Shown piece by piece: positions 11,484-20,503 of a stretch of DNA of 64,000 nucleotides. The DNA is from an uncultured Acidobacteriaceae bacterium. GTDB lineage: Bacteria; Acidobacteriota; Terriglobia; Terriglobales; Acidobacteriaceae. The notes below the pieces were generated by a model that was not told the origin of the DNA, searched no databases, and worked only from the letters and a program-made list of their open reading frames with translations. Every line of letters starts with the position of its first letter. Within the stretch, counting starts at the first letter, position 1. The position numbers were made by a program, and so were the translations under genes. The stretch covers positions 19,797-83,796 of the forward strand of contig CAVWUX010000010.1 of assembly GCA_963758255.1 (NCBI GenBank). The letters run 5' to 3'.

Positions 11484-11560
11484 TCCCGCAGCTAGCTGAG
11501 TTACCCTGGGGTGCTCCTCTCCGGAAGCAGAACCGAACTGCGGCTTTTTGGACACACGGT

Positions 11561-11596
11561 GTGGCAAATCTGCGAATTTGCCACATCTTTCTTTTT
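11561..11596 (+). terminator. Hairpin GTGGCAAAT-N6-ATTTGCCAC followed by a T-rich tract
   Basis: Perfect 9-bp inverted repeat (11561-11584), then ATCTTTCTTTTT, 78 nt after the preceding stop codon. The stem is AT-rich, so it could also be a protein-binding palindrome. Confidence 0.4.
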
Positions 11597-12177
11597 CACG
11601 TGATGTTTAGAATCAGTGGTTTAGCCGGAAATTGTTCGCAAGTGATTGATAAATATGTAGGTTATACGTATCCATTTCCTGGGCGTGGGAGTTAGGTGGC
11701 ACGATGTTCGTCTTTCGTTCGCCTATTGGTCAGGGGGGTGGGGAGAGCGGTGTCCGGGTCCACTGCCCCAGTGACGGATCGCTCTGCACACTTTTTCATG
11801 TCCGATGAGGGGTTGCGCGGGTTTGCAAAGATCAAGCAGGGTCCGCGGCCTGGGCGCGGAGCGGGCAAGGCGCACCAATCCCTTGCTTCACGATTCACTT
11901 TCTACACTGCAGTAAACCGAGCGCGAAAGGACGTGGGACACATGACGGTGTGATAAGGCATGGCTGATGAAAATGCGGCAACTGCGGATCATAGGAAACG
12001 CCGGAGCCGAGTGGGCACGGAAACAGTCTGGTTCTCAATTGCCGAAGGCAATTGTGGGCCACCAGCGAGTGGCTCGCGATACGGAAAGAATCCGTCGCGG
12101 GCTGCGGCGTCGCGATGCCGGCTGTCACTCGACGGGGCCACCTTGCGGCTATACCAGTGTTTTGTGAAAATTTCCAC

Positions 12178-12205
12178 TTGACTTGAATCGAAACGGTACT
12201 AGTCT
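12178..12205 (+). promoter_or_regulatory. Sigma70-like promoter candidate TTGACT-N16-TAGTCT
   Basis: TTGACT at 12178-12183 and TAGTCT at 12200-12205. Immediately preceded by the near-palindrome GTGAAAATTTCCAC (12164-12177). About 300 nt upstream of the Crp-like gene. Confidence 0.3.
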
Positions 12206-12503
12206 GTCAGCAGTACCTGGGACTTCGGTGCGCCCTTCGTCCAGTGCCGGCAGGCTCTTCGGCGCCGCACTCGGCCTTCTTGATTGGTTCCTTGCTTTGG
12301 CCACGATGTATACGATCGTCGGGAACGGCCGATTTGCCGAGAATCAGCTTCTTCCCGTCCGCGCTGAGTAAATCTTTGGCGATATGTGTGGCCTAGCGCG
12401 TGTGGGCGAGCGCCAGGGAACTCCATTCATTCCCCGCCCGTCGAATGTGTCACCCGACCATATTCCTTGGCAAACGAAAACGGTTTCGTGACAGAGTCGG
12501 AAT

Positions 12504-13334
12504 TTGAGCACAAGGAATCGCGTCCTTCCGGATAGTTGTGGCACTCGCAACCATGGGAAGCCATTGAAGTACGAACCTATACAACTTTCCGATGCGGCTC
12601 GGAATCATCTCTTGTGCGCGCTATCGCTTGCCGAACTGGGGCGTCTACTGCCGCATTTTCAGCGTGTGACATGTTCCCTCGGCCAGATCGTTTACGAACC
12701 GGGCGAGCGCATCGAGTATTGTTACTTTCCAACCGACTGCGTCGTGTCGCTGGTGTACACCATGCGAGATGGCACGACTGCGGAAATGGGCCTGGTGGGA
12801 AATGAAGGTGTCCTCGGTGTCGCGCTATTTCTAGGAGGCGAATCTACCTGCAGCCGGGCTCTGGTACCGATCGCCGGGGAAGCACTCCAGTTGCCGGCCA
12901 AGCTGTTGCAGGAAGAGTTCGCGCGCGGCGGGCCGCTGCAGCGCTTGCTACTGCGCTACACACTAACGCTCATCACCCAGATTTCTCAAACCGCCGTCTG
13001 TAACCGCTTGCATTCCGTGGAGCAGCGGCTCTGCCGTTGGCTGCTCCTGTGCCATGACCGGAAGAATCGTACGGAATTACCCATGACCCAGGAACTCATT
13101 GCCAACATGCTCGGGGGACGTCGCGAGAGCGTAACCGTAGCCGCCGGACATCTGCAGGACGCCGGGCTGATTCATTACTGCCGCGGTCATATCACGATAC
13201 TGGATCGGGTTGGCCTCGAGGCGGCCGCCTGTGAATGCTATTGCGCCGTGGAAAATGAAGCCGACCGTCTGATCGGCAGGAAGCGGAAACCCGAATCTAG
13301 CAACCCCGAGGCAGCTTTTGAAGTAGCCGGCTAA
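12504..13334 (+). CDS. Crp/Fnr-family transcriptional regulator
   Basis: Cyclic-nucleotide-binding-like beta-roll region (YEPGERIEYCYFPTDCVVSL..GNEGVLG). C-terminal HTH (TQELIANMLGGRRESVTVAAGHLQDAGLI). Confidence 0.85.
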   Translation: MSTRNRVLPDSCGTRNHGKPLKYEPIQLSDAARNHLLCALSLAELGRLLPHFQRVTCSLGQIVYEPGERIEYCYFPTDCVVSLVYTMRDGTTAEMGLVGNEGVLGVALFLGGESTCSRALVPIAGEALQLPAKLLQEEFARGGPLQRLLLRYTLTLITQISQTAVCNRLHSVEQRLCRWLLLCHDRKNRTELPMTQELIANMLGGRRESVTVAAGHLQDAGLIHYCRGHITILDRVGLEAAACECYCAVENEADRLIGRKRKPESSNPEAAFEVAG

Positions 13335-13695
13335 CAAAGAAACGTAGCTGATCAAAATTGTCAGGCCGCGTCAGGTAGACGTTGCTCCCGACTGCCACCT
13401 CCGAACCCTCATCGAGACTGGCCACGCTGAAGATGACAACCGGAACATCTTCGCCCAGTCCAGCGCGTTCGCGGATTCGCCTTGCGATTGCAACCGTAAG
13501 AAGAGGATTCAGTCCCAGACTGAAGAGAATCAGATCAGGACTCTGGAGACCGGCCTTCAAGACCGCTTCTTCCTCATCTCTGGCCGTACTTACCCGGTAG
13601 CCACTGGATGTGAGTAGTCGCTCTACGCCATGGCGGGTCTCTTCCACATCCTCAACCACCAGGATGACCGAGCGGCACTCTTGATTGGATGTCAC
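13297..13695 (-). CDS. Stand-alone receiver-like protein lacking the phospho-acceptor Asp (pseudo-receiver)
   Basis: REC fold motifs (ILVVEDVEE, VPVVIFSV), but the beta3 position reads PDLILFSLGL (Asp replaced by Ser) and the conserved Lys is replaced (YLTRP). The 3' end overlaps the Crp-like gene by 38 nt, convergently. Confidence 0.75.
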   Translation of the reverse strand: MTSNQECRSVILVVEDVEETRHGVERLLTSSGYRVSTARDEEEAVLKAGLQSPDLILFSLGLNPLLTVAIARRIRERAGLGEDVPVVIFSVASLDEGSEVAVGSNVYLTRPDNFDQLRFFVSRLLQKLPRGC

Positions 13696-13972
13696 GGTTT
13701 GAGCTATGAGCGAACATCACTTTTCTACCAGAGTCATTCTTGGCCGTCTGTGCGCTGAACTACAAAGCTTCTGTCCCGAAGTGCACGGGTGTTGAAGCTA
13801 CGAACGAGCAGGCGAGATGTGACAATTTCTTGCGCTATGTGCGCTACCGCACCGACGCCCGTCCGCGTTTGCCCTCATGCTGCTTTCGAACAACGCGCCG
13901 CGACTCGACTCGCTCGCGAGTGAATCCAACGCTTGCGGCCCAGTTGCCAGGCATTAAGTTCGGAGGGATGTT

Positions 13973-16297
13973 ATGAGTGATGTGATCTCGTATGAAGACG
14001 CAGTCAGCCGGTTAGCCTCGCAGTCCGGTGCGGTTGGGCAACTCGCCCAGGACGCTGGCGCATTCGCGGCGGCTGTCGCTGCCTTTGAGGCAAGAGATGC
14101 AGACGCTTATCGCTGGGTGCTGGATCGGGTCGAGATGCTCCCCTATTGCGAATTGATCTGTGAGTGGGTGCGCGTCAAATTGGGGGTCTTGCGCTGCTAC
14201 GAGTTGTGTGGCGTGCCGCAGGAAAAGGTGCCAATTCCCGATCTGCAGCAGTTCGCCGCTGCGGTGGTACAACTCGCGTCAAATGAAAAACTGCTGCGCC
14301 AGGTTGTGGATGCGGTGGCCTGCGGTAATGGAGACGAATACCGAGCTGCCATCGCCGAACTCAAGCTCACTGAGTTCTGTTATCTGCTGTGTCATTGGGT
14401 CTACTTGATCATCTACCGCCGGGTTTGTGAGGTTATCTGCTCGCCTGAACGCATCCGCCTTGAAGATGCGGTGAGCGAGGTACAGGCCGCCAGCAAGGTC
14501 GTCGCCAGCCTGTTGGCCAATGAGAAAGCCATTGCCGTCATCGGCAAGGCCGCAATCAACCTCGACTGCCTGGTCATACGGTCCCAGATTGATGAGATCG
14601 GTTTTCGGCCATTCTGCGAGATCATCTGCTGGCTGATTTGTACTTGGCGGTGTGCGTGGGTCTGCCGGGAACTGTGCCTGATTCGCCCGCCGATTCTCAC
14701 CGGGGTCGATGCGATTGAGGAAGCGCGGACCTTCGCGTTGGCAACCCGGCAGTTCGCAGGCAAGCCTCGCGGGCTGACGGACTTGGTGACCGCGGTTGCG
14801 AGTCGGGACGCACAAGCTTACAGCGCGATCATTGACCGCTGGGGTCTCGGCCCGTACTGCTGGCAGGTGTGCGGGTGGATCTGCTGGGCCATCTGCCGCG
14901 AGTTCTGCATCTGCATTTGTCCGCCGCCGGTGCGTCGCCCATGGTTTGTCACCGTAGGCAATTTCGACATCTACACGCAGATTGATCCCGGCACGGGACG
15001 AACCAACACGAGTCTTGCACCCACCATCAACATGCCCTGGGGCGGCGGACCTAACTTCGCCTTCTTCAACGAGTTGAAGCTAGGCGGCTTCTGTCCCGCC
15101 GACTCGCCGACGTCACCGGGCATGCCGATGCGTTATCGCTTCCTCTACGCGAAGGACAAGACCACATTGTCCGGTGCAATAACGGCTGCCCAGGGTTCGA
15201 TCGATGTAACCAGTGCGGGCGCACCGGCTCCGCCCTTCAATATTTCGGTCTGCGTAGACGGACAAAGCGGCGAGACGATGACTGTGACCGGCGTTTCAGG
15301 TACCCACTGGACCGTCACACGCGGTCAGGATGGCACGACGGCGGCCGCCGCTGCCGCGGGAGCCGAGGTGTGGATTGACCCGAAGCCGATCACCGGTCCC
15401 CTCGTCGGCTCTGAGCTCCTGGTCGGGCAACGATTCATCTCCTGGCCGCAGAACACTGCCGGCGTCGCTGGGCCCGGGTTCGATCCGAACACGTTCGAAC
15501 CAATCTATGTAGGTTACGGTACCGACCCACTTCCACCAGCGCTGGGAACGACGTACTATAGCCCGAAACACTACATCAGCCCAGATATCACCACCGGCTG
15601 GATTGAAGTCGACCCAAACAGTCTCGCTGGAGCCTTCTTTGACCTACTTAACTTCGATTCGGCACAGGTCGTGGCCGGCGGCTGCCCGCCACTTCCCAAC
15701 CCCGATCCCCACCCATGCTTGAATGACATGCACTCGCCAGGTGGCGCGCCGGCTGGCAGTGCCGTGACAGGCGCCGGCCAAGGAGCCGGCACGGACTTGG
15801 CGATTATTTTCCAAGCCACTCGCGTCGGCGTTAGCTCTATCGATTACTCCAATTCCCTCTGCAAGATCCACATCAACAACTGGGTTGAGGTGAACAACCT
15901 GTGGATACAGGAATTCAATGGCCCAAGCACATGCTGTACGCCGATTGACACAACCCTCAGCGTGCAATTCACCGTGGACCACGAAGAGATGGACGCGGGT
16001 GGGTGGACCCTGGAAATCCTAAGTTGCAGCGGGTCCGCGCCGGGCGTCATTACACCGACGGCTTCCAGCCTCGGCCCGCCCCCGGTCACTGTGTCTTCTC
16101 GCGGCGGTTGGGGAACTATCGTTGAGAACACGACCGGCTGGACCAACTGCTCCTATCAGGTGTGGCTCATAACCAGACCCGGGCTCACAACTGGCCTGCA
16201 CGATCGGCATGAGGAAGATAATCTTTTGACCTTCTGTATCTGTGGACACGGAGGCCTTACGGCGCCGGCCGCCGCGGTACAGGCAAAGAAGCGCTAA
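13973..16297 (+). CDS. Cysteine-ladder repeat protein, 774 aa, no recognised family
   Basis: Long uninterrupted ORF with a GGAGGG SD 6 nt upstream. Contains four ~80-aa repeats ending in Cx3C-periodic helices. The C-terminal 450 aa are Gly/Pro/Thr-rich. No signal peptide. Confidence 0.85.
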   Translation: MSDVISYEDAVSRLASQSGAVGQLAQDAGAFAAAVAAFEARDADAYRWVLDRVEMLPYCELICEWVRVKLGVLRCYELCGVPQEKVPIPDLQQFAAAVVQLASNEKLLRQVVDAVACGNGDEYRAAIAELKLTEFCYLLCHWVYLIIYRRVCEVICSPERIRLEDAVSEVQAASKVVASLLANEKAIAVIGKAAINLDCLVIRSQIDEIGFRPFCEIICWLICTWRCAWVCRELCLIRPPILTGVDAIEEARTFALATRQFAGKPRGLTDLVTAVASRDAQAYSAIIDRWGLGPYCWQVCGWICWAICREFCICICPPPVRRPWFVTVGNFDIYTQIDPGTGRTNTSLAPTINMPWGGGPNFAFFNELKLGGFCPADSPTSPGMPMRYRFLYAKDKTTLSGAITAAQGSIDVTSAGAPAPPFNISVCVDGQSGETMTVTGVSGTHWTVTRGQDGTTAAAAAAGAEVWIDPKPITGPLVGSELLVGQRFISWPQNTAGVAGPGFDPNTFEPIYVGYGTDPLPPALGTTYYSPKHYISPDITTGWIEVDPNSLAGAFFDLLNFDSAQVVAGGCPPLPNPDPHPCLNDMHSPGGAPAGSAVTGAGQGAGTDLAIIFQATRVGVSSIDYSNSLCKIHINNWVEVNNLWIQEFNGPSTCCTPIDTTLSVQFTVDHEEMDAGGWTLEILSCSGSAPGVITPTASSLGPPPVTVSSRGGWGTIVENTTGWTNCSYQVWLITRPGLTTGLHDRHEEDNLLTFCICGHGGLTAPAAAVQAKKR

Positions 16298-16701
16298 TGT
16301 GGAGGTTCGTTCTGGCCGTTCTCGCAACCTGGCGGGTGACACACCTGCTGGCGAGCGAGGACGGCCCGGCCGACATCATCGTTCGATTTCGTGCGTTGTT
16401 GGGCCGGAGCATCATCGGCAAGCTGATGGACTGCTTCAATTGTCTCAGCCTGTGGGTCGCAGCTCTGGCGGCTCTTTACGTTTCGCGAAAGCCTCTGGAG
16501 TGGTTATTCTGCTGGCTGGCGCTGTCCGGTGGCGCCTGCCTGCTCGAACGCTTGGGGCAGGAGCCGGTCGTGATTCAACCCATGTCGCAGCCGGCAGAGG
16601 GAGATAACAGCGATGTGTTGCGGTCAGAATCGCACGGCAATGCGGAACATTCTGGCGCAGGGGACCACACGGAGCATTCCACAATACAGCTCCGGCTATA
16701 G
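16297..16701 (+). CDS. DUF1360-like small membrane protein
   Basis: TAATG stop/start overlap with the upstream gene. Has WRVTHLLxxEDGP and CFNCLSLWVA motifs plus hydrophobic segments, as I recall for DUF1360. Confidence 0.6.
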   Translation: MWRFVLAVLATWRVTHLLASEDGPADIIVRFRALLGRSIIGKLMDCFNCLSLWVAALAALYVSRKPLEWLFCWLALSGGACLLERLGQEPVVIQPMSQPAEGDNSDVLRSESHGNAEHSGAGDHTEHSTIQLRL

Positions 16702-16990
16702 CCAGGCCCAAGCCGTTCGAACCCGGCCTTCGACGCCTCCAGCAACGCAGACAGCTTCACCACACCCGGTCGCCATCCCGCAGGGTCAAGGTGTCCGACT
16801 TCAGGCCACGACGCCGGTCTCAGCACTGCAATCTGCCATGAGTTTGCGCTATCTGGAGAAGTCGCCCATCCGAGTGCGCGGACTTGCAACCGGCATCCTC
16901 TACGAGTTTTCGGGCGCCGCCCCTATTCAGCAAGTGGACACCAGAGACGCCCCGCCACTGTTGAACACACGATTCTTCCGTCGCGCATAA
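16613..16990 (+). CDS. Small hypothetical protein starting MCCGQNR
   Basis: 125-aa ORF with a GGAGA SD 8 nt upstream. It starts 89 nt inside the preceding ORF in another frame. Pro/Thr/Gln-rich middle, ordered-looking C-terminus (IRVRGLATGILYEFSGAAPIQQVDTRDAPPLL). Confidence 0.5.
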   Translation: MCCGQNRTAMRNILAQGTTRSIPQYSSGYSQAQAVRTRPSTPPATQTASPHPVAIPQGQGVRLQATTPVSALQSAMSLRYLEKSPIRVRGLATGILYEFSGAAPIQQVDTRDAPPLLNTRFFRRA

Positions 16991-17536
16991 GGGTGCAAGA
17001 CGGATTCGCCCGATAAAGCAAATCGAATTGGCGGAACTCAGCGCTCTCGTTGCAAGCTCCAAGGCGAAGACTCCAAGGTCCTCGGCCGGTGGCCCAGCCC
17101 GCGCGGGTCAAGCAGAATCTTAACGTGGGTGGCCCATTCCGGCTTCCATTGCCGGGGTGGGTGCTTTGATTTTCGCTGACAAATGGCCACTCGCTACTGA
17201 CCAAAGGCACGGTTCATCCGTCACACTCAACCGTGATGAACTCGCTTGGTGCTTCCCGCCCCATGCGCATACACTACCAGCGGCAGGATGAGGGAGAGCT
17301 GTCGTCCCCGAAGATGGCAGCCGGACACTACCCGAGTCCCCAGTAGGTGCCTCGACCTGTGATGGGTCACGTTCGTCCTCGATGTCTCGCCCATCTGCCC
17401 GCCCACGCTCTCGCCCCGTCCGAAGTAATCCTACTTAACTCCTTTGTTAACAAGACTTTGAATATAACTCACGTGTTTGCAGGAACTTACAGCCGATCGT
17501 GCTGCAAACCCTTTGTTTTCAAGAACAGGGGTAGGG

Positions 17537-17561
17537 GGGAGGGGTACCCAAAACCCCTCCC
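17537..17561 (-). terminator. GC-rich hairpin downstream of the rpfF-like gene
   Basis: GGGAGGGGT-N7-ACCCCTCCC, a 9-bp perfect stem, 40 nt after the stop codon. No clear U-tract. Confidence 0.35.
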
Positions 17562-17600
17562 GCTCCAGAACGGGAAATGCCGTCCAAAATCGAAGCTGAC

Positions 17601-18521
17601 TCACACCTCCGGCGCGACCGGCGCAGCGGATGCGGTTCCGCTGAATCGCCGGGATTGCGCTCGAACAACTCGCTCAATCGTCCGAATTCCCTGTTCACCC
17701 AAGGCCATTGCTGAGTCGACCCATTCGGTCGTGATGTCCTGCAGTTCTAAGATGGGCACACTCTCATAGCGCTGATAGACGCGGTTCACCGCCTGGTGGG
17801 CCAAGGGGGCACGGCGGCGGTCCTGCACCAGCCTGTGGGCCGCTGCGAGACCCTCACCGCGGGGCACGAGCATATCGACAATGCCAAGCTGGTATAGCTC
17901 CTCAGCCTTGTAGCGCTGCCCATTCAGAACCATGCGCTGGGCGCGCATCGCCGAGGTGCGGCGACGCAAGAACGAAAAGGCGCCCATGCCGGGGAAAAGG
18001 CCGAACAGCACTTCGGGGAAGCCCATCTGCACGCCCTCCTCGGCGATGAATGTATTGCATGCCAGGGCCACCTCCAGTCCGCCGCCCAGGGCGTCACCTT
18101 GCACCACCGCGATGGTATGCACTGATCCCGCCGCGATGTCCTGAAGCGCTGCGACCACCTCAACACAGAGCAAGGCGTATCGCAGCAGCGTTTCGCGATC
18201 ACGGCGGCGGATGCAGCGCGCAAACAGCTCCAGATCGCCGCCGAGGTTGAATACCGGCGCATCGCTGGCGATGACCAGGTGGGTGAGCGGCATCACTACG
18301 TTCTCGCGTTGAGCCAGCGTCTGCGTCCGAACAAGCTGCTGCTGCAACGCTTTTGCATCCTCAAGAATGGGCCAGGAACAACAAGGACGCGATTGATCGA
18401 TGGCGTGCATAAACGCCCAATAGATGTTGCTTTCCGTGTCGTGTTGGGTGCGCATGTGGCGGTCAACACAAGAGGGTGGAAGGGGTGTCAGAGTGCTTTG
18501 AAGTCGAGTGGCGGCATTCAT
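17601..18521 (-). CDS. rpfF: Crotonase-superfamily DSF-synthase-like protein (RpfF/DfsA type)
   Basis: Matches recalled RpfF/Bcam0581 signatures: YWAFMH..SRPCC, SDAPVFNLGGDLELF, QGDALGGGLE, GFPEVLFGLFPGMGAFSFL, WVDSAMALGEQGIRTIERVVRAQSRR. Start uncertain (ATG 18521 with GAAAGG upstream, or 18551). The ORF-track start 18671 looks too long. Confidence 0.75.
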   Translation of the reverse strand: MNAATRLQSTLTPLPPSCVDRHMRTQHDTESNIYWAFMHAIDQSRPCCSWPILEDAKALQQQLVRTQTLAQRENVVMPLTHLVIASDAPVFNLGGDLELFARCIRRRDRETLLRYALLCVEVVAALQDIAAGSVHTIAVVQGDALGGGLEVALACNTFIAEEGVQMGFPEVLFGLFPGMGAFSFLRRRTSAMRAQRMVLNGQRYKAEELYQLGIVDMLVPRGEGLAAAHRLVQDRRRAPLAHQAVNRVYQRYESVPILELQDITTEWVDSAMALGEQGIRTIERVVRAQSRRFSGTASAAPVAPEV

Positions 18522-18934
18522 TCGCAGGGACCTTTCGTTTCGGGATAACATCCAATAATTCCGACGAAACACGATTTGCTCTGCGTCTGGAACTGTTCTT
18601 ACTGGGGCTTGGCTTTTGAGTAGGGTATCAGACCAACCGTTTGACCGGCTCGGAAAAACCCCGCTGGACATTTTGCGGCGTGGCTTGGCCGCGACGGCCG
18701 AGACCCCGGTTTCGAGGCCGGCACCGTTGGCAACAGATCCACGGTTGCATTTCCACAGGAGAGATCGGAGGCCCGTTCGGGCGGACTCGGCAAGGTAGCG
18801 CTACGATAACGATGCCCATCGAAACGTAAGGTTAAGGGGCTTTGCCGTCCACATGCATGTCAGTTGATGAAATCGCTACCCCGTAAGTAACGCGAACGGC
18901 GGTTCCGTTATGAAGCGAGTTGTGCCTGTCGCCG

Positions 18935-20503
18935 TCACTGCAGCGCGCTGGTCAGAAAGCCTCCAACCTCCTGCTTCAGCCGACCGAGAGCGTCGCTCTT
19001 GATGTACATCATGTGTCCGGCGTCGTAATAGCCGAGGGTGATCTTGGCGTGCTGCTGGGCGTTGAGGTTCATGTGGCTGAGCGTGTACTGGGTCGCGAAG
19101 TAGGGCGTTGCCAGGTCGTAGTAGCCGGAAGCCACGAACAGCTTCATGTAGGGATTCTTCACGAAGGCCAGCCGCAGCGCCTCGCTGGTATCGGGGAATC
19201 CTTCTCCGGCCGAGCCCCAATCCCAGTCGGTAACGCCTCCGCCGAGCACGTAATACTCAAGATCGGTTTTGTAACCCAGATCGCTGCGCACGTAGTTGTT
19301 GAAGGTTGCGGTAAACGGCGGACGTATCACCGACATGGAAGGGTCGTAATACATGCCCTCACCGCGCACGCGTGAGAGGTCGTCGCCGGTGAAGCGGCTA
19401 TCGAGACGGCCCACCATCAGCCGCTGATTGCGCAACAGCTCGCGGCAAAAAACACCCTGCGTCAGGCGCATATCGTTCTCGTCCACGACGCTGCGATCGA
19501 TTCCGGTGAATCGTGCTACCTGGTCGACCAGGGTCTGGCGCTCGGTTGGCGTCAGGTTGTCGCCCTTCCCCAAGGCGCTGGCATAGGGCCCGGCGGCAAA
19601 CTGCTGGGCGTCACTCAGGACGCTGGCCAGGTCGCGCTGCTGCAAATCCGGCGGCAGCTTCTTGTGGTACCACGCCGTCGATGTATAACTCGGCAGGTAG
19701 AGGATGTACGGCAGATCGTTGCCGCGGGTGAATTCCAGGGTCTGGAAGTTCAGCACCGAGGAAACCAGCACGACGCCACTGAGGGCGATGCCGCGGTCAA
19801 CCAGGTAGCCGCTGAGTCCGGCGGCGCGGGTGGTGCCGTAGCTCTCTCCGACCAGAAACAGCGGGGAAGTCCAGCGCTGGTAGCGGCTGAGGTACAACCT
19901 GATGAAATCGGCAACCGACGAAATGTCGCCTTTCACGCTGAAGAACTTCTTGGCGAGCTCCTTCTTGGTGGCCCGGCTGTAGCCGGTTCCTACCGGGTCG
20001 ATGAACACGAGGTCGGTCTGGTCGAGCCAAGTGTCTTCGTTGTCTATCAGCTCGAAGGGAGGTTGAGGCATGCCGCCGTCGGGCAGCATTTTCACACGGC
20101 GCGGACCGATGGCGCCCAGATGCAGCCAGAGGGATGCCGATCCCGGGCCGCCGTTAAAGGAAAACATCAGCGGCCGCTTTGCGGGGGCGTTGTCGAGGGT
20201 GTAGGCGACAAAGAAAATGTTGGCTTCAACCTCGGTTCCCTCTTCGTTGCGGATCGGCATGTAGCCGGCGGTCGCGGTGTAGTGCAGCGCGCGTCCACCA
20301 ACCGTGATCTGGTGGTGGGTGACAATCGGCGGCTCTTCCTTGGGGGCTGCGGGCTTCTCCGCATCGCCGGGAAGCTTGCCGGACTTCTCGGTGGTTTTGT
20401 CGGCGGGCTTGGCGGATTCGGCGGCGTCCTTCTGCTGTGCGGTAAGGCAGGGGGCAAAGAAAAGCAGCGTTAGACAAATAGCAGCGGCACGAACATGGCG
20501 CAT
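18935..20503 (-). CDS. Secreted S10-family serine carboxypeptidase
   Basis: Signal peptide (AAICLTLLFFAPCLTAQ), FNGGPGSAS motif and GESYG catalytic-Ser motif. Confidence 0.85.
   Translation of the reverse strand: MRHVRAAAICLTLLFFAPCLTAQQKDAAESAKPADKTTEKSGKLPGDAEKPAAPKEEPPIVTHHQITVGGRALHYTATAGYMPIRNEEGTEVEANIFFVAYTLDNAPAKRPLMFSFNGGPGSASLWLHLGAIGPRRVKMLPDGGMPQPPFELIDNEDTWLDQTDLVFIDPVGTGYSRATKKELAKKFFSVKGDISSVADFIRLYLSRYQRWTSPLFLVGESYGTTRAAGLSGYLVDRGIALSGVVLVSSVLNFQTLEFTRGNDLPYILYLPSYTSTAWYHKKLPPDLQQRDLASVLSDAQQFAAGPYASALGKGDNLTPTERQTLVDQVARFTGIDRSVVDENDMRLTQGVFCRELLRNQRLMVGRLDSRFTGDDLSRVRGEGMYYDPSMSVIRPPFTATFNNYVRSDLGYKTDLEYYVLGGGVTDWDWGSAGEGFPDTSEALRLAFVKNPYMKLFVASGYYDLATPYFATQYTLSHMNLNAQQHAKITLGYYDAGHMMYIKSDALGRLKQEVGGFLTSALQ

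What the first reader, a model, noticed from the sequence alone, without database searches (positions are those of the whole stretch)
17601..18521. Orphan RpfF/DfsA-like DSF (cis-2-enoic acid) signal synthase in an acidobacterial context
The ORF carries the motifs I recall as distinguishing DSF synthases from ordinary enoyl-CoA hydratases: W/YxxMH..RPC, VFNLGGDLxLF, QGxALGGGxE, PEVLFxLFPGMGAxSF, WVDxAMxL..R. DSF signalling is best described in Xanthomonas and Burkholderia, where it involves RpfC/RpfG or RpfR sensors and the Crp-like Clp output. Here no RpfB/C/G/R-like gene is adjacent. However, a Crp-like regulator and a pseudo-receiver lie 4-5 kb away, and the gene is convergent with the Cys-ladder operon.
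Basis: partly seen in the sequence, partly recalled or inferred. Interest (0 to 1): 0.6.

Follow-up and report, generated by a model that had tools for sequence, protein, structure and literature searches.

The report
Orphan DSF-type synthase in an acidobacterium
A soil acidobacterium (Korobacteraceae) carries an intact, horizontally acquired copy of the enzyme that Xanthomonas-type bacteria use to make fatty-acid "DSF" signals, but none of the known receptors for it; it is a credible but fairly ordinary new member of a known enzyme family in an unusual host.

Summary
The ORF at 17601-18521 (-) is real and is a true RpfF-class crotonase. It matches Xanthomonas campestris RpfF (PDB 3M6M) at E 3e-74 and is about 50% identical to Xanthomonadales RpfF. 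In a tree it falls deep inside the RpfF family, far from the genome's own housekeeping crotonases.

The host is a Candidatus Korobacteraceae acidobacterium. The gene is rare there: 2 of 19 genomes of the genus, and only this genome among 401 sampled from the phylum. It lies in a 7.4-kb strain-specific island.

In four related genomes it occupies four different loci. Only about 1.0-1.1 kb of DNA is shared: the gene plus a strongly conserved ~50-nt leader. Its nearest outside relatives sit in canonical rpfB-rpfF-rpfC-rpfG clusters of Xanthomonadales-like bacteria. This points to horizontal acquisition without the sensor genes.

The genome has no RpfC sensor domain, no RpfR and no EAL domain at all. 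Its one REC-HD-GYP regulator is a core gene of the whole order. The nearby Crp-like regulator travels with the Cys-ladder operon, not with rpfF.

The gene is under purifying selection (dN/dS 0.12-0.31). Verdict: observation confirmed, "orphan DSF synthase" supported, the hinted Crp link rejected. It is a new member of a known kind, of moderate-low interest.

The parts
17601..18521 (-). RpfF-class (DSF-synthase family) crotonase gene, 306 aa. Catalytic Glu are E150 and E170.
18522..18581 (-). Conserved 5' leader that travels with the gene. About 50 nt just upstream of the ATG (TTTCG.CGGAAT...CCGAAACGAAAGG) are nearly invariant in all four clade loci, even where the CDS is only 75% identical. 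It contains the SD-like GAAAGG. It is probably a promoter, operator or translation-initiation region.
   Evidence: No convincing RNA fold or covariation.
18582..18669 (-). Further upstream DNA shared only with the closest locus (L091). This marks the outer limit of the mobile unit.
   Evidence: homology 18669..17589 with L091, 18581..17602 with L090
17556..17577 (-). Terminator-like hairpin about 25 nt after the stop codon. It is a pattern match only, and the number of such matches in the region is no higher than chance.
11484..18936 (.). A 7.4-kb strain-specific island. It lies between the conserved ferredoxin-reductase-like gene (ends 11483) and the conserved S10 peptidase gene (ends 18935). 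It holds the Crp-like gene, the pseudo-receiver, the Cys-ladder three-gene operon, a repeat element and rpfF. Genus relatives carry 1.4-8.4 kb of unrelated DNA at this site.
17074..17580 (.). Multi-copy intergenic repeat family of the genus, filling the gap between the Cys-ladder operon and rpfF. It is not found next to rpfF in the other carriers, so it is context and not part of the rpfF unit.

Best explanation
The gene encodes a functional RpfF-class bifunctional crotonase. By homology to characterised RpfF and Bcam0581 (inferred, not shown here), it would take 3-hydroxyacyl-ACP from fatty-acid synthesis and dehydrate it to cis-2-enoyl-ACP. It would then hydrolyse the thioester and release a free cis-2-unsaturated (DSF-family) fatty acid.

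What the evidence here shows is the gene's history. A Korobacteraceae (Acidobacteriota) lineage acquired it from a Xanthomonadales-like gammaproteobacterial rpf cluster, without the linked rpfB, rpfC and rpfG. It has since moved between members of the genus as a single-gene unit of about 1.0-1.1 kb with its own conserved 5' leader, landing in variable islands.

The genome has no known DSF receptor. The product is therefore either sensed by an unrecognised receptor or acts on other organisms as a one-way broadcast or interference signal. This last step is inference.
For: Family placement. PDB 3M6M RpfF matches at 3.3e-74 and 7ZQ7 at 2.6e-72, against about 1e-35 for Burkholderia/Cronobacter RpfF and 1e-17 or weaker for generic hydratases. 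NF006452 scores 320.9 bits against a cut-off of 177. Identity to Xanthomonadales RpfF is 45-52% across 80 genomes. JGI labels relatives 'DSF synthase'.

Catalytic residues. The Glu pair and the pocket residues L145, G146, G147, G94, M179 and W267 are conserved.

Tree. The Korobacteraceae clade has 100/100 support. It is nested in an 18-sequence clade, also 100/100. Three of that clade's other members were looked up (P0013, P0016, P0017). All three sit beside an RpfC-type hybrid kinase gene, and one lies in a full acn-rpfB-rpfF-rpfC-rpfG-lysS-prfB array. The sister contig is Xanthomonadales-like: its MnmG is 77-78% identical to Rudaea and Tahibacter.

Patchiness. The gene is in 2 of 19 genus genomes, 0 of 22 other genomes of the family and order, and only this genome among 401 sampled from the phylum.

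Mobility. There are four different insertion sites, and shared DNA is limited to the gene plus 150 nt or less upstream. rpfF is 88% identical between G000 and G003, while the flanking core genes are 73-77% identical.

Constraint. dN/dS is 0.12-0.31.

Orphan status. No RpfC sensor domain was found with four queries, and the positive control worked. There is no RpfR FI or PAS domain and no EAL domain.
Against: The score against NCBI's RpfF equivalog model (296 bits) is well below its 550-bit cut-off, so strict equivalence to Xanthomonadales RpfF is not established. RpfF enzymes are also broad acyl-ACP thioesterases (PMC4504480), so the relevant product need not be a signal. In other bacteria, synthases of this family are almost always linked to a receptor gene. 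The lack of one here could mean the enzyme has been put to another use. The genome is 94.5% complete, so a receptor could lie in the missing part.
Confidence: 0.7

Rival explanations
1. The enzyme is active but serves lipid metabolism or chemical antagonism rather than signalling. As a broad acyl-ACP thioesterase/dehydratase it would release free fatty acids for membrane remodelling, surfactant-like dispersal or antimicrobial effect. No receptor would then be needed.
For: RpfF and Bcam0581 cleave many acyl-ACPs in vitro, and RpfB is needed to counteract this (PMC4504480). No known receptor is present in the genome. No dedicated rpfB accompanies the gene; the best FadD-like match is only 34% identical and lies elsewhere.
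Against: The residues that define the DSF-producing subfamily are fully conserved. Uncontrolled thioesterase activity is costly, yet the gene is kept under purifying selection in at least 8 sequence clusters. Nothing here separates this reading from signalling.
Confidence: 0.15
2. The gene is a neutral or decaying passenger of horizontal transfer, with no role in the host.
For: It is very patchy. It sits in variable islands next to repeats, a Y1 transposase or TIR-type genes. dN/dS among the closest pairs is somewhat relaxed at about 0.3.
Against: The frame is intact in every copy examined. The catalytic residues are invariant. dN/dS falls to 0.12 over the deeper comparison, where dS is about 1.45. 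The 5' leader is conserved more strongly than the coding sequence.
Confidence: 0.07
3. rpfF forms a circuit with the neighbouring Crp-like regulator and pseudo-receiver, as a Clp-like output.
For: The genes lie 4-5 kb apart inside the same island. Clp, a Crp-family protein, is the DSF output in Xanthomonas (established knowledge).
Against: Orthologues of the Crp-like gene are in G012, G008 and G007, next to the Cys-ladder/DUF1360 module, and none of these genomes has rpfF. The rpfF carrier G003 lacks the Crp-like gene. None of the island's other genes occurs within 10 kb of rpfF in the other carriers.
Confidence: 0.03
4. It is an ordinary housekeeping enoyl-CoA hydratase of beta-oxidation.
For: It matches Pfam ECH_1 and ECH_2.
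Against: In the tree, the genome's five other crotonases form a distant outgroup. Scores against generic hydratases are 55 or more orders of magnitude weaker than against RpfF. The gene is absent from nearly all relatives.
Confidence: 0.02

Closest known systems
Xanthomonas campestris RpfF (DSF synthase; PDB 3M6M/3M6N)
   Same: Alignment is full-length (residues 12-293) at E 3e-74. It has the same crotonase fold family, both catalytic Glu (E141/E161 = E150/E170), the same GGG oxyanion-loop and pocket residues, and the C-terminal WVDxAM helix. The tree puts the window's protein in the same family clade.
   Different: Identity is only about 50%, and the score is below NCBI's RpfF equivalog cut-off (296 against 550 bits). 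It is not flanked by rpfB, rpfC or rpfG, and the genome has no RpfC-type sensor. The host is an acidobacterium, and the gene moves as a lone cassette.
Uncultured Xanthomonadales-like RpfF in rpfF-rpfC clusters (P0010-P0018 and P0023; loci L110-L113)
   Same: These are the nearest relatives outside the clade, at 52-57% identity. Together with the Korobacteraceae clade they form a 100/100-supported group.
   Different: Every one of these loci that was looked up has a convergent RpfC-type hybrid kinase gene. One has the full rpfB...rpfG-lysS array. The window's gene has none of these, and its conserved 5' leader is absent from them.
Burkholderia cenocepacia Bcam0581/DfsA (BDSF synthase; PDB 5FUS) and Cronobacter RpfF (6DGN)
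   Same: They share the bifunctional-crotonase subfamily and the Glu pair. They match at about 1e-35 over residues 79-294, with 30% identity.
   Different: They are much more distant than the Xanthomonadales type. These enzymes are paired with RpfR (FI-PAS-GGDEF-EAL), whereas the window's genome has no EAL domain at all.
Pseudomonas aeruginosa DspI (cis-2-decenoic acid synthase; PDB 5WYB, identity of the entry from memory)
   Same: It is a crotonase implicated in cis-2-enoic acid production and encoded without an adjacent dedicated receptor.
   Different: Similarity is only generic-crotonase level (7e-20). It is not the same subfamily.

Membership tests
RpfF / DSF-synthase subfamily of the crotonase superfamily | Crotonase (ECH) fold | tested here: met
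   Pfam ECH_1 at 4e-24 and ECH_2 at 4e-15. Full-length alignment to solved RpfF structures.
RpfF / DSF-synthase subfamily of the crotonase superfamily | Two catalytic glutamates (Xcc E141 and E161) | tested here: met
   E150 (GGGLE) and E170 (PEVLF) align to chain positions 157 and 177 of 3M6M, which are native 141 and 161. Both are invariant in 18 sequences.
RpfF / DSF-synthase subfamily of the crotonase superfamily | Phylogenetic placement with characterised RpfF, apart from housekeeping enoyl-CoA hydratases | tested here: met
   ML tree (LG+C20, 49 sequences). The protein is nested among Xanthomonadales-type RpfF, and the genome's own paralogues are a distant outgroup.
RpfF / DSF-synthase subfamily of the crotonase superfamily | Score above NCBIfam's RpfF equivalog cut-off (NF053515, 550 bits) | tested here: not met
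   296 bits. It does pass the related model NF006452 (320.9 against 177 bits). It is therefore a subfamily member, not a strict equivalog of Xanthomonadales RpfF.
RpfF / DSF-synthase subfamily of the crotonase superfamily | 3-hydroxyacyl-ACP dehydratase plus thioesterase activity giving a cis-2-unsaturated fatty acid | not testable with these tools
   Needs enzymology and LC-MS. The mechanism is taken from PMC4504480.
Complete DSF signalling system (rpf cluster, RpfC/RpfG type) | RpfC-type sensor kinase with the polytopic DSF-sensing input domain | tested here: not met
   N-terminal sensor domains of four RpfC proteins gave no tblastn hit in the genome at E<=0.01. As a positive control, these domains find each other at 1e-19 to 1e-27. 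The genome is 94.5% complete.
Complete DSF signalling system (rpf cluster, RpfC/RpfG type) | RpfG (REC-HD-GYP) linked to or co-distributed with rpfF | tested here: not met
   A REC-HD-GYP gene exists at C1:426630-427751, 36% identical to RpfG. It is a core gene in 41 of 41 genomes of the order, nearly all of which lack rpfF.
Complete DSF signalling system (RpfR type) | RpfR receptor (FI-PAS-GGDEF-EAL) | tested here: not met
   No hit to the FI or PAS domains of B. cenocepacia RpfR. No EAL domain (PF00563) in the genome, while the control rings in 6 of 14 genomes.

The most novel reading that the evidence does not exclude
A subset of Korobacteraceae make a DSF-family fatty acid with a receptor-less, self-mobile synthase cassette. 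It would then be either read by a receptor class not yet known (neither RpfC nor RpfR) or used purely to manipulate DSF-responsive neighbours such as Xanthomonadales, Burkholderia or fungi. This would be the first DSF-family chemistry in Acidobacteriota, and a case of a quorum-signal synthase spreading on its own as a 'broadcast' gene. The invariant ~50-nt leader would be its private control element.
Probability: 0.3. Interest if true: 0.6.

Novelty: new member of a known kind. Interest (0 to 1): 0.35.

Why it matters
Acidobacteria are among the most abundant soil bacteria, yet almost nothing is known about their chemical communication. A genuine RpfF-class enzyme is shown here by strict criteria, not by the loose HMM hits of metagenome surveys. 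It suggests that some Korobacteraceae can produce cis-2-enoic fatty acids in soils where DSF-responsive Xanthomonadales and Burkholderia live. The separation of synthase from receptor, and the gene's movement as a lone cassette, give a concrete case for testing whether signal synthases can spread as interference or 'eavesdropping-in-reverse' genes. The enzyme itself is an ordinary member of a well-studied family, and orphan RpfF homologues are noted in other genomes of this scan.

Tried and rejected
(1) A link to the Crp-like regulator, pseudo-receiver or Cys-ladder operon was rejected. Their distribution in the genus is independent of rpfF, and they are absent near rpfF in the other carriers.

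(2) The adjacent 4HBT thioesterase and S10 peptidase as partners were rejected. Both are core syntenic genes present in relatives that lack rpfF.

(3) MAG contamination or chimeric assembly was rejected. The gene lies inside a 167-kb contig with Korobacteraceae synteny on both sides. It also recurs in at least four independent assemblies of related genomes. Its GC content (61.7%) is close to that of the genome (59.0%).

(4) The repeat at 17074-17580 as a vehicle for rpfF was rejected. It is not found within 10 kb of rpfF in the other loci.

(5) An RNA structure in the conserved leader is not supported. The consensus fold is weak (-4.3 kcal/mol) and shows essentially no covariation. Rfam finds nothing in the region.

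(6) The longer ORF starting at 18671 was rejected. Only part of that extension is shared, with one locus only, and homologues begin at the MNAATR start.

(7) The REC-HD-GYP gene near lysS, an arrangement reminiscent of Xanthomonas rpfG-lysS, is a core gene of the order and not co-acquired.

(9) The sigma-70 consensus scan found no promoter in 16900-19100.

Full report
OBSERVATION. On the minus strand an open frame runs 17601-18671. Pfam sees only a crotonase (ECH_1, 4e-24). NCBIfam is more specific. The best model is NF006452 at 320.9 bits (cut-off 177). Next is the RpfF equivalog NF053515 at 296 bits, below its 550-bit cut-off. All generic hydratase models score 93 bits or less. Against solved structures the ranking is X. 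campestris RpfF 3M6M at 3.3e-74 and 7ZQ7 at 2.6e-72. Then come Burkholderia/Cronobacter RpfF (5FUS, 6DGN) at about 1e-35, 5WYB at 7e-20, and ordinary enoyl-CoA hydratases at 1e-17 or weaker. In the 3M6M alignment the catalytic Glu141 and Glu161 correspond to E150 and E170. Both are invariant in an 18-sequence alignment, as are G94, L145, G146, G147, M179 and W267. The start at 18521 is supported because homologues in four genomes begin MNAATR or MNLAVN and a GAAAGG lies about 10 nt upstream. The source's own call is 22 codons shorter.

HOST AND DISTRIBUTION. The window is C10:19797-83796 of a 4.78-Mb, 17-contig genome that is 94.5% complete. Its GlmS is 88% identical to proteins of 'Candidatus Korobacteraceae' MAGs. 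This places the genome in Acidobacteriota, Terriglobia, Terriglobales. An RpfF-class homologue (E<=1e-40) is present in only 2 of 19 genomes of the genus. It is absent from the 22 other sampled genomes of the family and order. Among 401 genomes spread over 228 genera of the phylum, only this genome has one. In the large protein collection there is a tight group of eight clusters at 77-90% identity. Identity then jumps down to 57% or less, and from there on the hits are overwhelmingly Xanthomonadales (Lysobacterales) RpfF at 45-53%.

PHYLOGENY. I built an ML tree of 49 sequences (LG+C20+F+G4, ultrafast bootstrap/SH-aLRT). It included Xanthomonadales RpfF, B. cenocepacia BDSF synthase, megaplasmid homologues from Methylobacterium, Sphingomonas and Methylibium, an E. 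coli plasmid homologue, and the genome's five other crotonases as outgroup. The Korobacteraceae sequences form one clade (100/100). That clade is nested in an 18-sequence clade (100/100), which in turn lies within the RpfF family. The housekeeping paralogues sit on a long outgroup branch. I looked up three of the non-acidobacterial members of the 18-sequence clade. All three lie in canonical arrangements. P0013 and P0016 are convergent with an RpfC-type HisKA-HATPase-REC-Hpt kinase gene. P0017 sits in aconitase-rpfB-PilZ-rpfF-rpfC-...-rpfG-lysS-prfB. The contig of the sister lineage (P0013) is Xanthomonadales-like: its MnmG is 77-78% identical to Rudaea and Tahibacter. The simplest reading is horizontal transfer from a Xanthomonadales-like soil gammaproteobacterium into Korobacteraceae, leaving the sensor genes behind.

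GENOMIC SETTING. Synteny with five genus relatives runs up to window 11483, the end of a ferredoxin-reductase-like gene. It resumes at 18882-18937, the end of the S10 peptidase gene. Between these anchors the relatives carry 1.4-8.4 kb of unrelated DNA. So 11484-18936 is a strain-specific island. It contains a Crp-like gene, a stand-alone receiver, the 774-aa 'Cys-ladder' gene with its two small partners, a repeat element and rpfF. None of the island's other proteins is encoded at the homologous site in relatives, or within 10 kb of rpfF in the other carriers.

In four carriers the gene sits at four different loci:
- In the window it follows the S10 peptidase gene.
- In G003/L090 it lies in a different island, beside unknown genes and a Y1 transposase.
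- In L091 it lies between an aminotransferase gene and a TIR-domain gene.
- In L088/L089 it lies between a transglutaminase-core gene and a pirin gene.

DNA homology between these loci is confined to 18669/18581..17589 of the window. That is the CDS, 150 nt or less upstream and about 12 nt downstream. Between G000 and G003, rpfF is 88% identical while the flanking core genes are 73-77% identical. This argues for lateral exchange inside the genus. GC content (61.7% against 59.0% for the genome) shows no anomaly.

CONSTRAINT AND LEADER. Pairwise dN/dS is 0.26-0.31 among the close copies. It is 0.12-0.14 against the most distant copy, where dS is about 1.45. The gene is therefore maintained by selection. 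The ~50 nt immediately upstream of the ATG (TTTCG.CGGAAT...CCGAAACGAAAGG) are almost invariant across all four loci, including the one whose CDS is only 75% identical. They are absent from the proteobacterial relatives. A consensus RNA fold is weak and without covariation. I therefore read the leader as a DNA-level promoter or operator plus ribosome-binding region that travels with the gene. A terminator-like hairpin follows the stop codon, though this is a pattern match only.

IS IT REALLY ORPHAN? I took RpfB, RpfC and RpfG from a Xanthomonas arboricola locus. I took three further RpfC proteins from the sister-clade loci. I took RpfR from B. cenocepacia, verified by its matches to the RpfR FI and PAS structures 6DGA and 6DGG. 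All were searched against the whole genome.
- The N-terminal sensor domains of the four RpfC proteins give no hit at E<=0.01, although they find one another at 1e-19 to 1e-27.
- RpfR's FI and PAS domains give no hit, and only five GGDEF domains match.
- A Pfam EAL search of the genome finds nothing, while the control genomes respond.
- A REC-HD-GYP protein with the RpfG architecture exists (36% identity). It is present in all 41 genomes sampled from the genus, family and order, nearly all of which lack rpfF. It was not co-acquired.
- The best RpfB-like acyl-CoA ligase is a generic FadD at 34% identity.

By contrast, other RpfF homologues I looked at come with a receptor gene next door: RpfC in the sister clade, and an EAL-domain protein in Methylobacterium and Sphingomonas. 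'Orphan' is therefore a real contrast, within the limits of a 94.5%-complete genome.

THE CRP HINT. Orthologues of the Crp-like gene at 60-80% identity occur in G012, G008 and G007. In each case they lie a few kb from a match to the DUF1360/Cys-ladder module. None of these genomes has rpfF, and G003, which has rpfF, lacks the Crp-like gene. The Crp-like gene, and presumably the pseudo-receiver overlapping it, belongs with the Cys-ladder module. Its proximity to rpfF is an accident of two insertions into one hot spot.

MECHANISM. What is shown: family membership, an intact catalytic apparatus, purifying selection, horizontal origin, single-gene mobility, and absence of known receptors. What is inferred from the characterised enzymes (Bcam0581 and Xcc RpfF; review PMC4504480): the protein dehydrates 3-hydroxyacyl-ACP to cis-2-enoyl-ACP and hydrolyses the thioester, releasing a cis-2-unsaturated fatty acid. 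It probably also releases saturated fatty acids through its broad thioesterase activity. What is speculative: the role of the product. It could be a signal read by an unknown receptor, an interspecies signal or interference molecule aimed at DSF-responsive neighbours, or simply a released lipid.

COMPARISON AND NOVELTY. The protein is a member of the RpfF subfamily and is closest to the Xanthomonadales type. It is not a strict NCBI equivalog, and it is not part of an rpf signalling system by any of the receptor criteria tested. In the paper library, four papers mention both RpfF and Acidobacteria, and judging from their titles and abstracts none describes such a gene. Searches for 'DSF synthase' with Acidobacteriota gave nothing relevant. 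Metagenome surveys report 'rpfF' very broadly, but by HMM-based screening (PMC12781772). Notes from this scan list other orphan RpfF-type genes in other phyla, which I did not check. The finding is thus a new member of a known kind in an unusual host, with an interesting mobility pattern. My interest score is 0.35.

LIMITS. The genome is incomplete. The donor is assigned from one sister contig.

Noticed in passing
window 16991-17600 (core 17074-17580): The 610-bp 'gene-free gap' between the Cys-ladder operon and rpfF is made of a multi-copy intergenic repeat family. Pieces of it match dozens of places in every genome of the genus at 70-86% identity, and about 17 places in the window's own genome. 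Its nature (MITE-like element, small RNA or other) was not determined, and Rfam has no match.
   Followed up: partly
window 12504-16990; G012:C12:672493-677152, G008:C10:235775-240088, G007:C4:136450-140625: The Crp-like regulator travels with the Cys-ladder/DUF1360 module. In three other genus genomes, orthologues of both lie within about 4 kb of each other. The regulator is probably dedicated to that operon.
   Followed up: partly
own genome (whole): No EAL domain (PF00563) is detectable in this 94.5%-complete genome. There are about five GGDEF matches and two HD-GYP proteins (C1:426630-427751 and C2:619081-619650, the latter next to a GGDEF). c-di-GMP breakdown appears to rely on HD-GYP enzymes alone.
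   Followed up: partly
own genome C1:426630-432437 (L107:6628-12437): The core REC-HD-GYP gene lies downstream of lysS on the same strand, with two genes in between. This echoes the rpfG-lysS adjacency of Xanthomonas (L030:13084-15879). It is probably coincidence.
   Followed up: no
L080:10001-10867 (Nocardiopsis yanglingensis strain A18, JBJNRH010000016.1): An actinomycete assembly carries an RpfF that is sister to Lysobacter RpfF in the tree (98/94 support). This is either contamination of the assembly by a Lysobacteraceae contig or a recent transfer.
   Followed up: no
L117:4806-5639 (E. coli IncK2/Z plasmid NZ_CP060058.1): A mobilizable E. coli plasmid encodes a distant RpfF-like crotonase (35% identity over 64% of the query). 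It follows an ABC transporter / FtsX permease / LolA-like gene set. It sits on a long branch at the base of the RpfF family in the tree.
   Followed up: no
L114:4905-8237 and L115:1908-4772 (Methylobacterium radiotolerans pMRAD01; Sphingomonas parapaucimobilis megaplasmid): Alphaproteobacterial megaplasmids carry RpfF homologues (about 39% identity), each convergent with an EAL-domain protein gene. These are plasmid-borne synthase/receptor-like pairs of the RpfR type.
   Followed up: no
L091:11117-11776 and L090:8032-8478: In other carriers rpfF sits beside a TIR-domain gene plus Schlafen/AlbA_2 and HATPase_c_4 genes (a defence-island-like setting), or beside a Y1 (IS200/IS605-type) transposase. 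This is consistent with insertion into variable, mobile regions.
   Followed up: no
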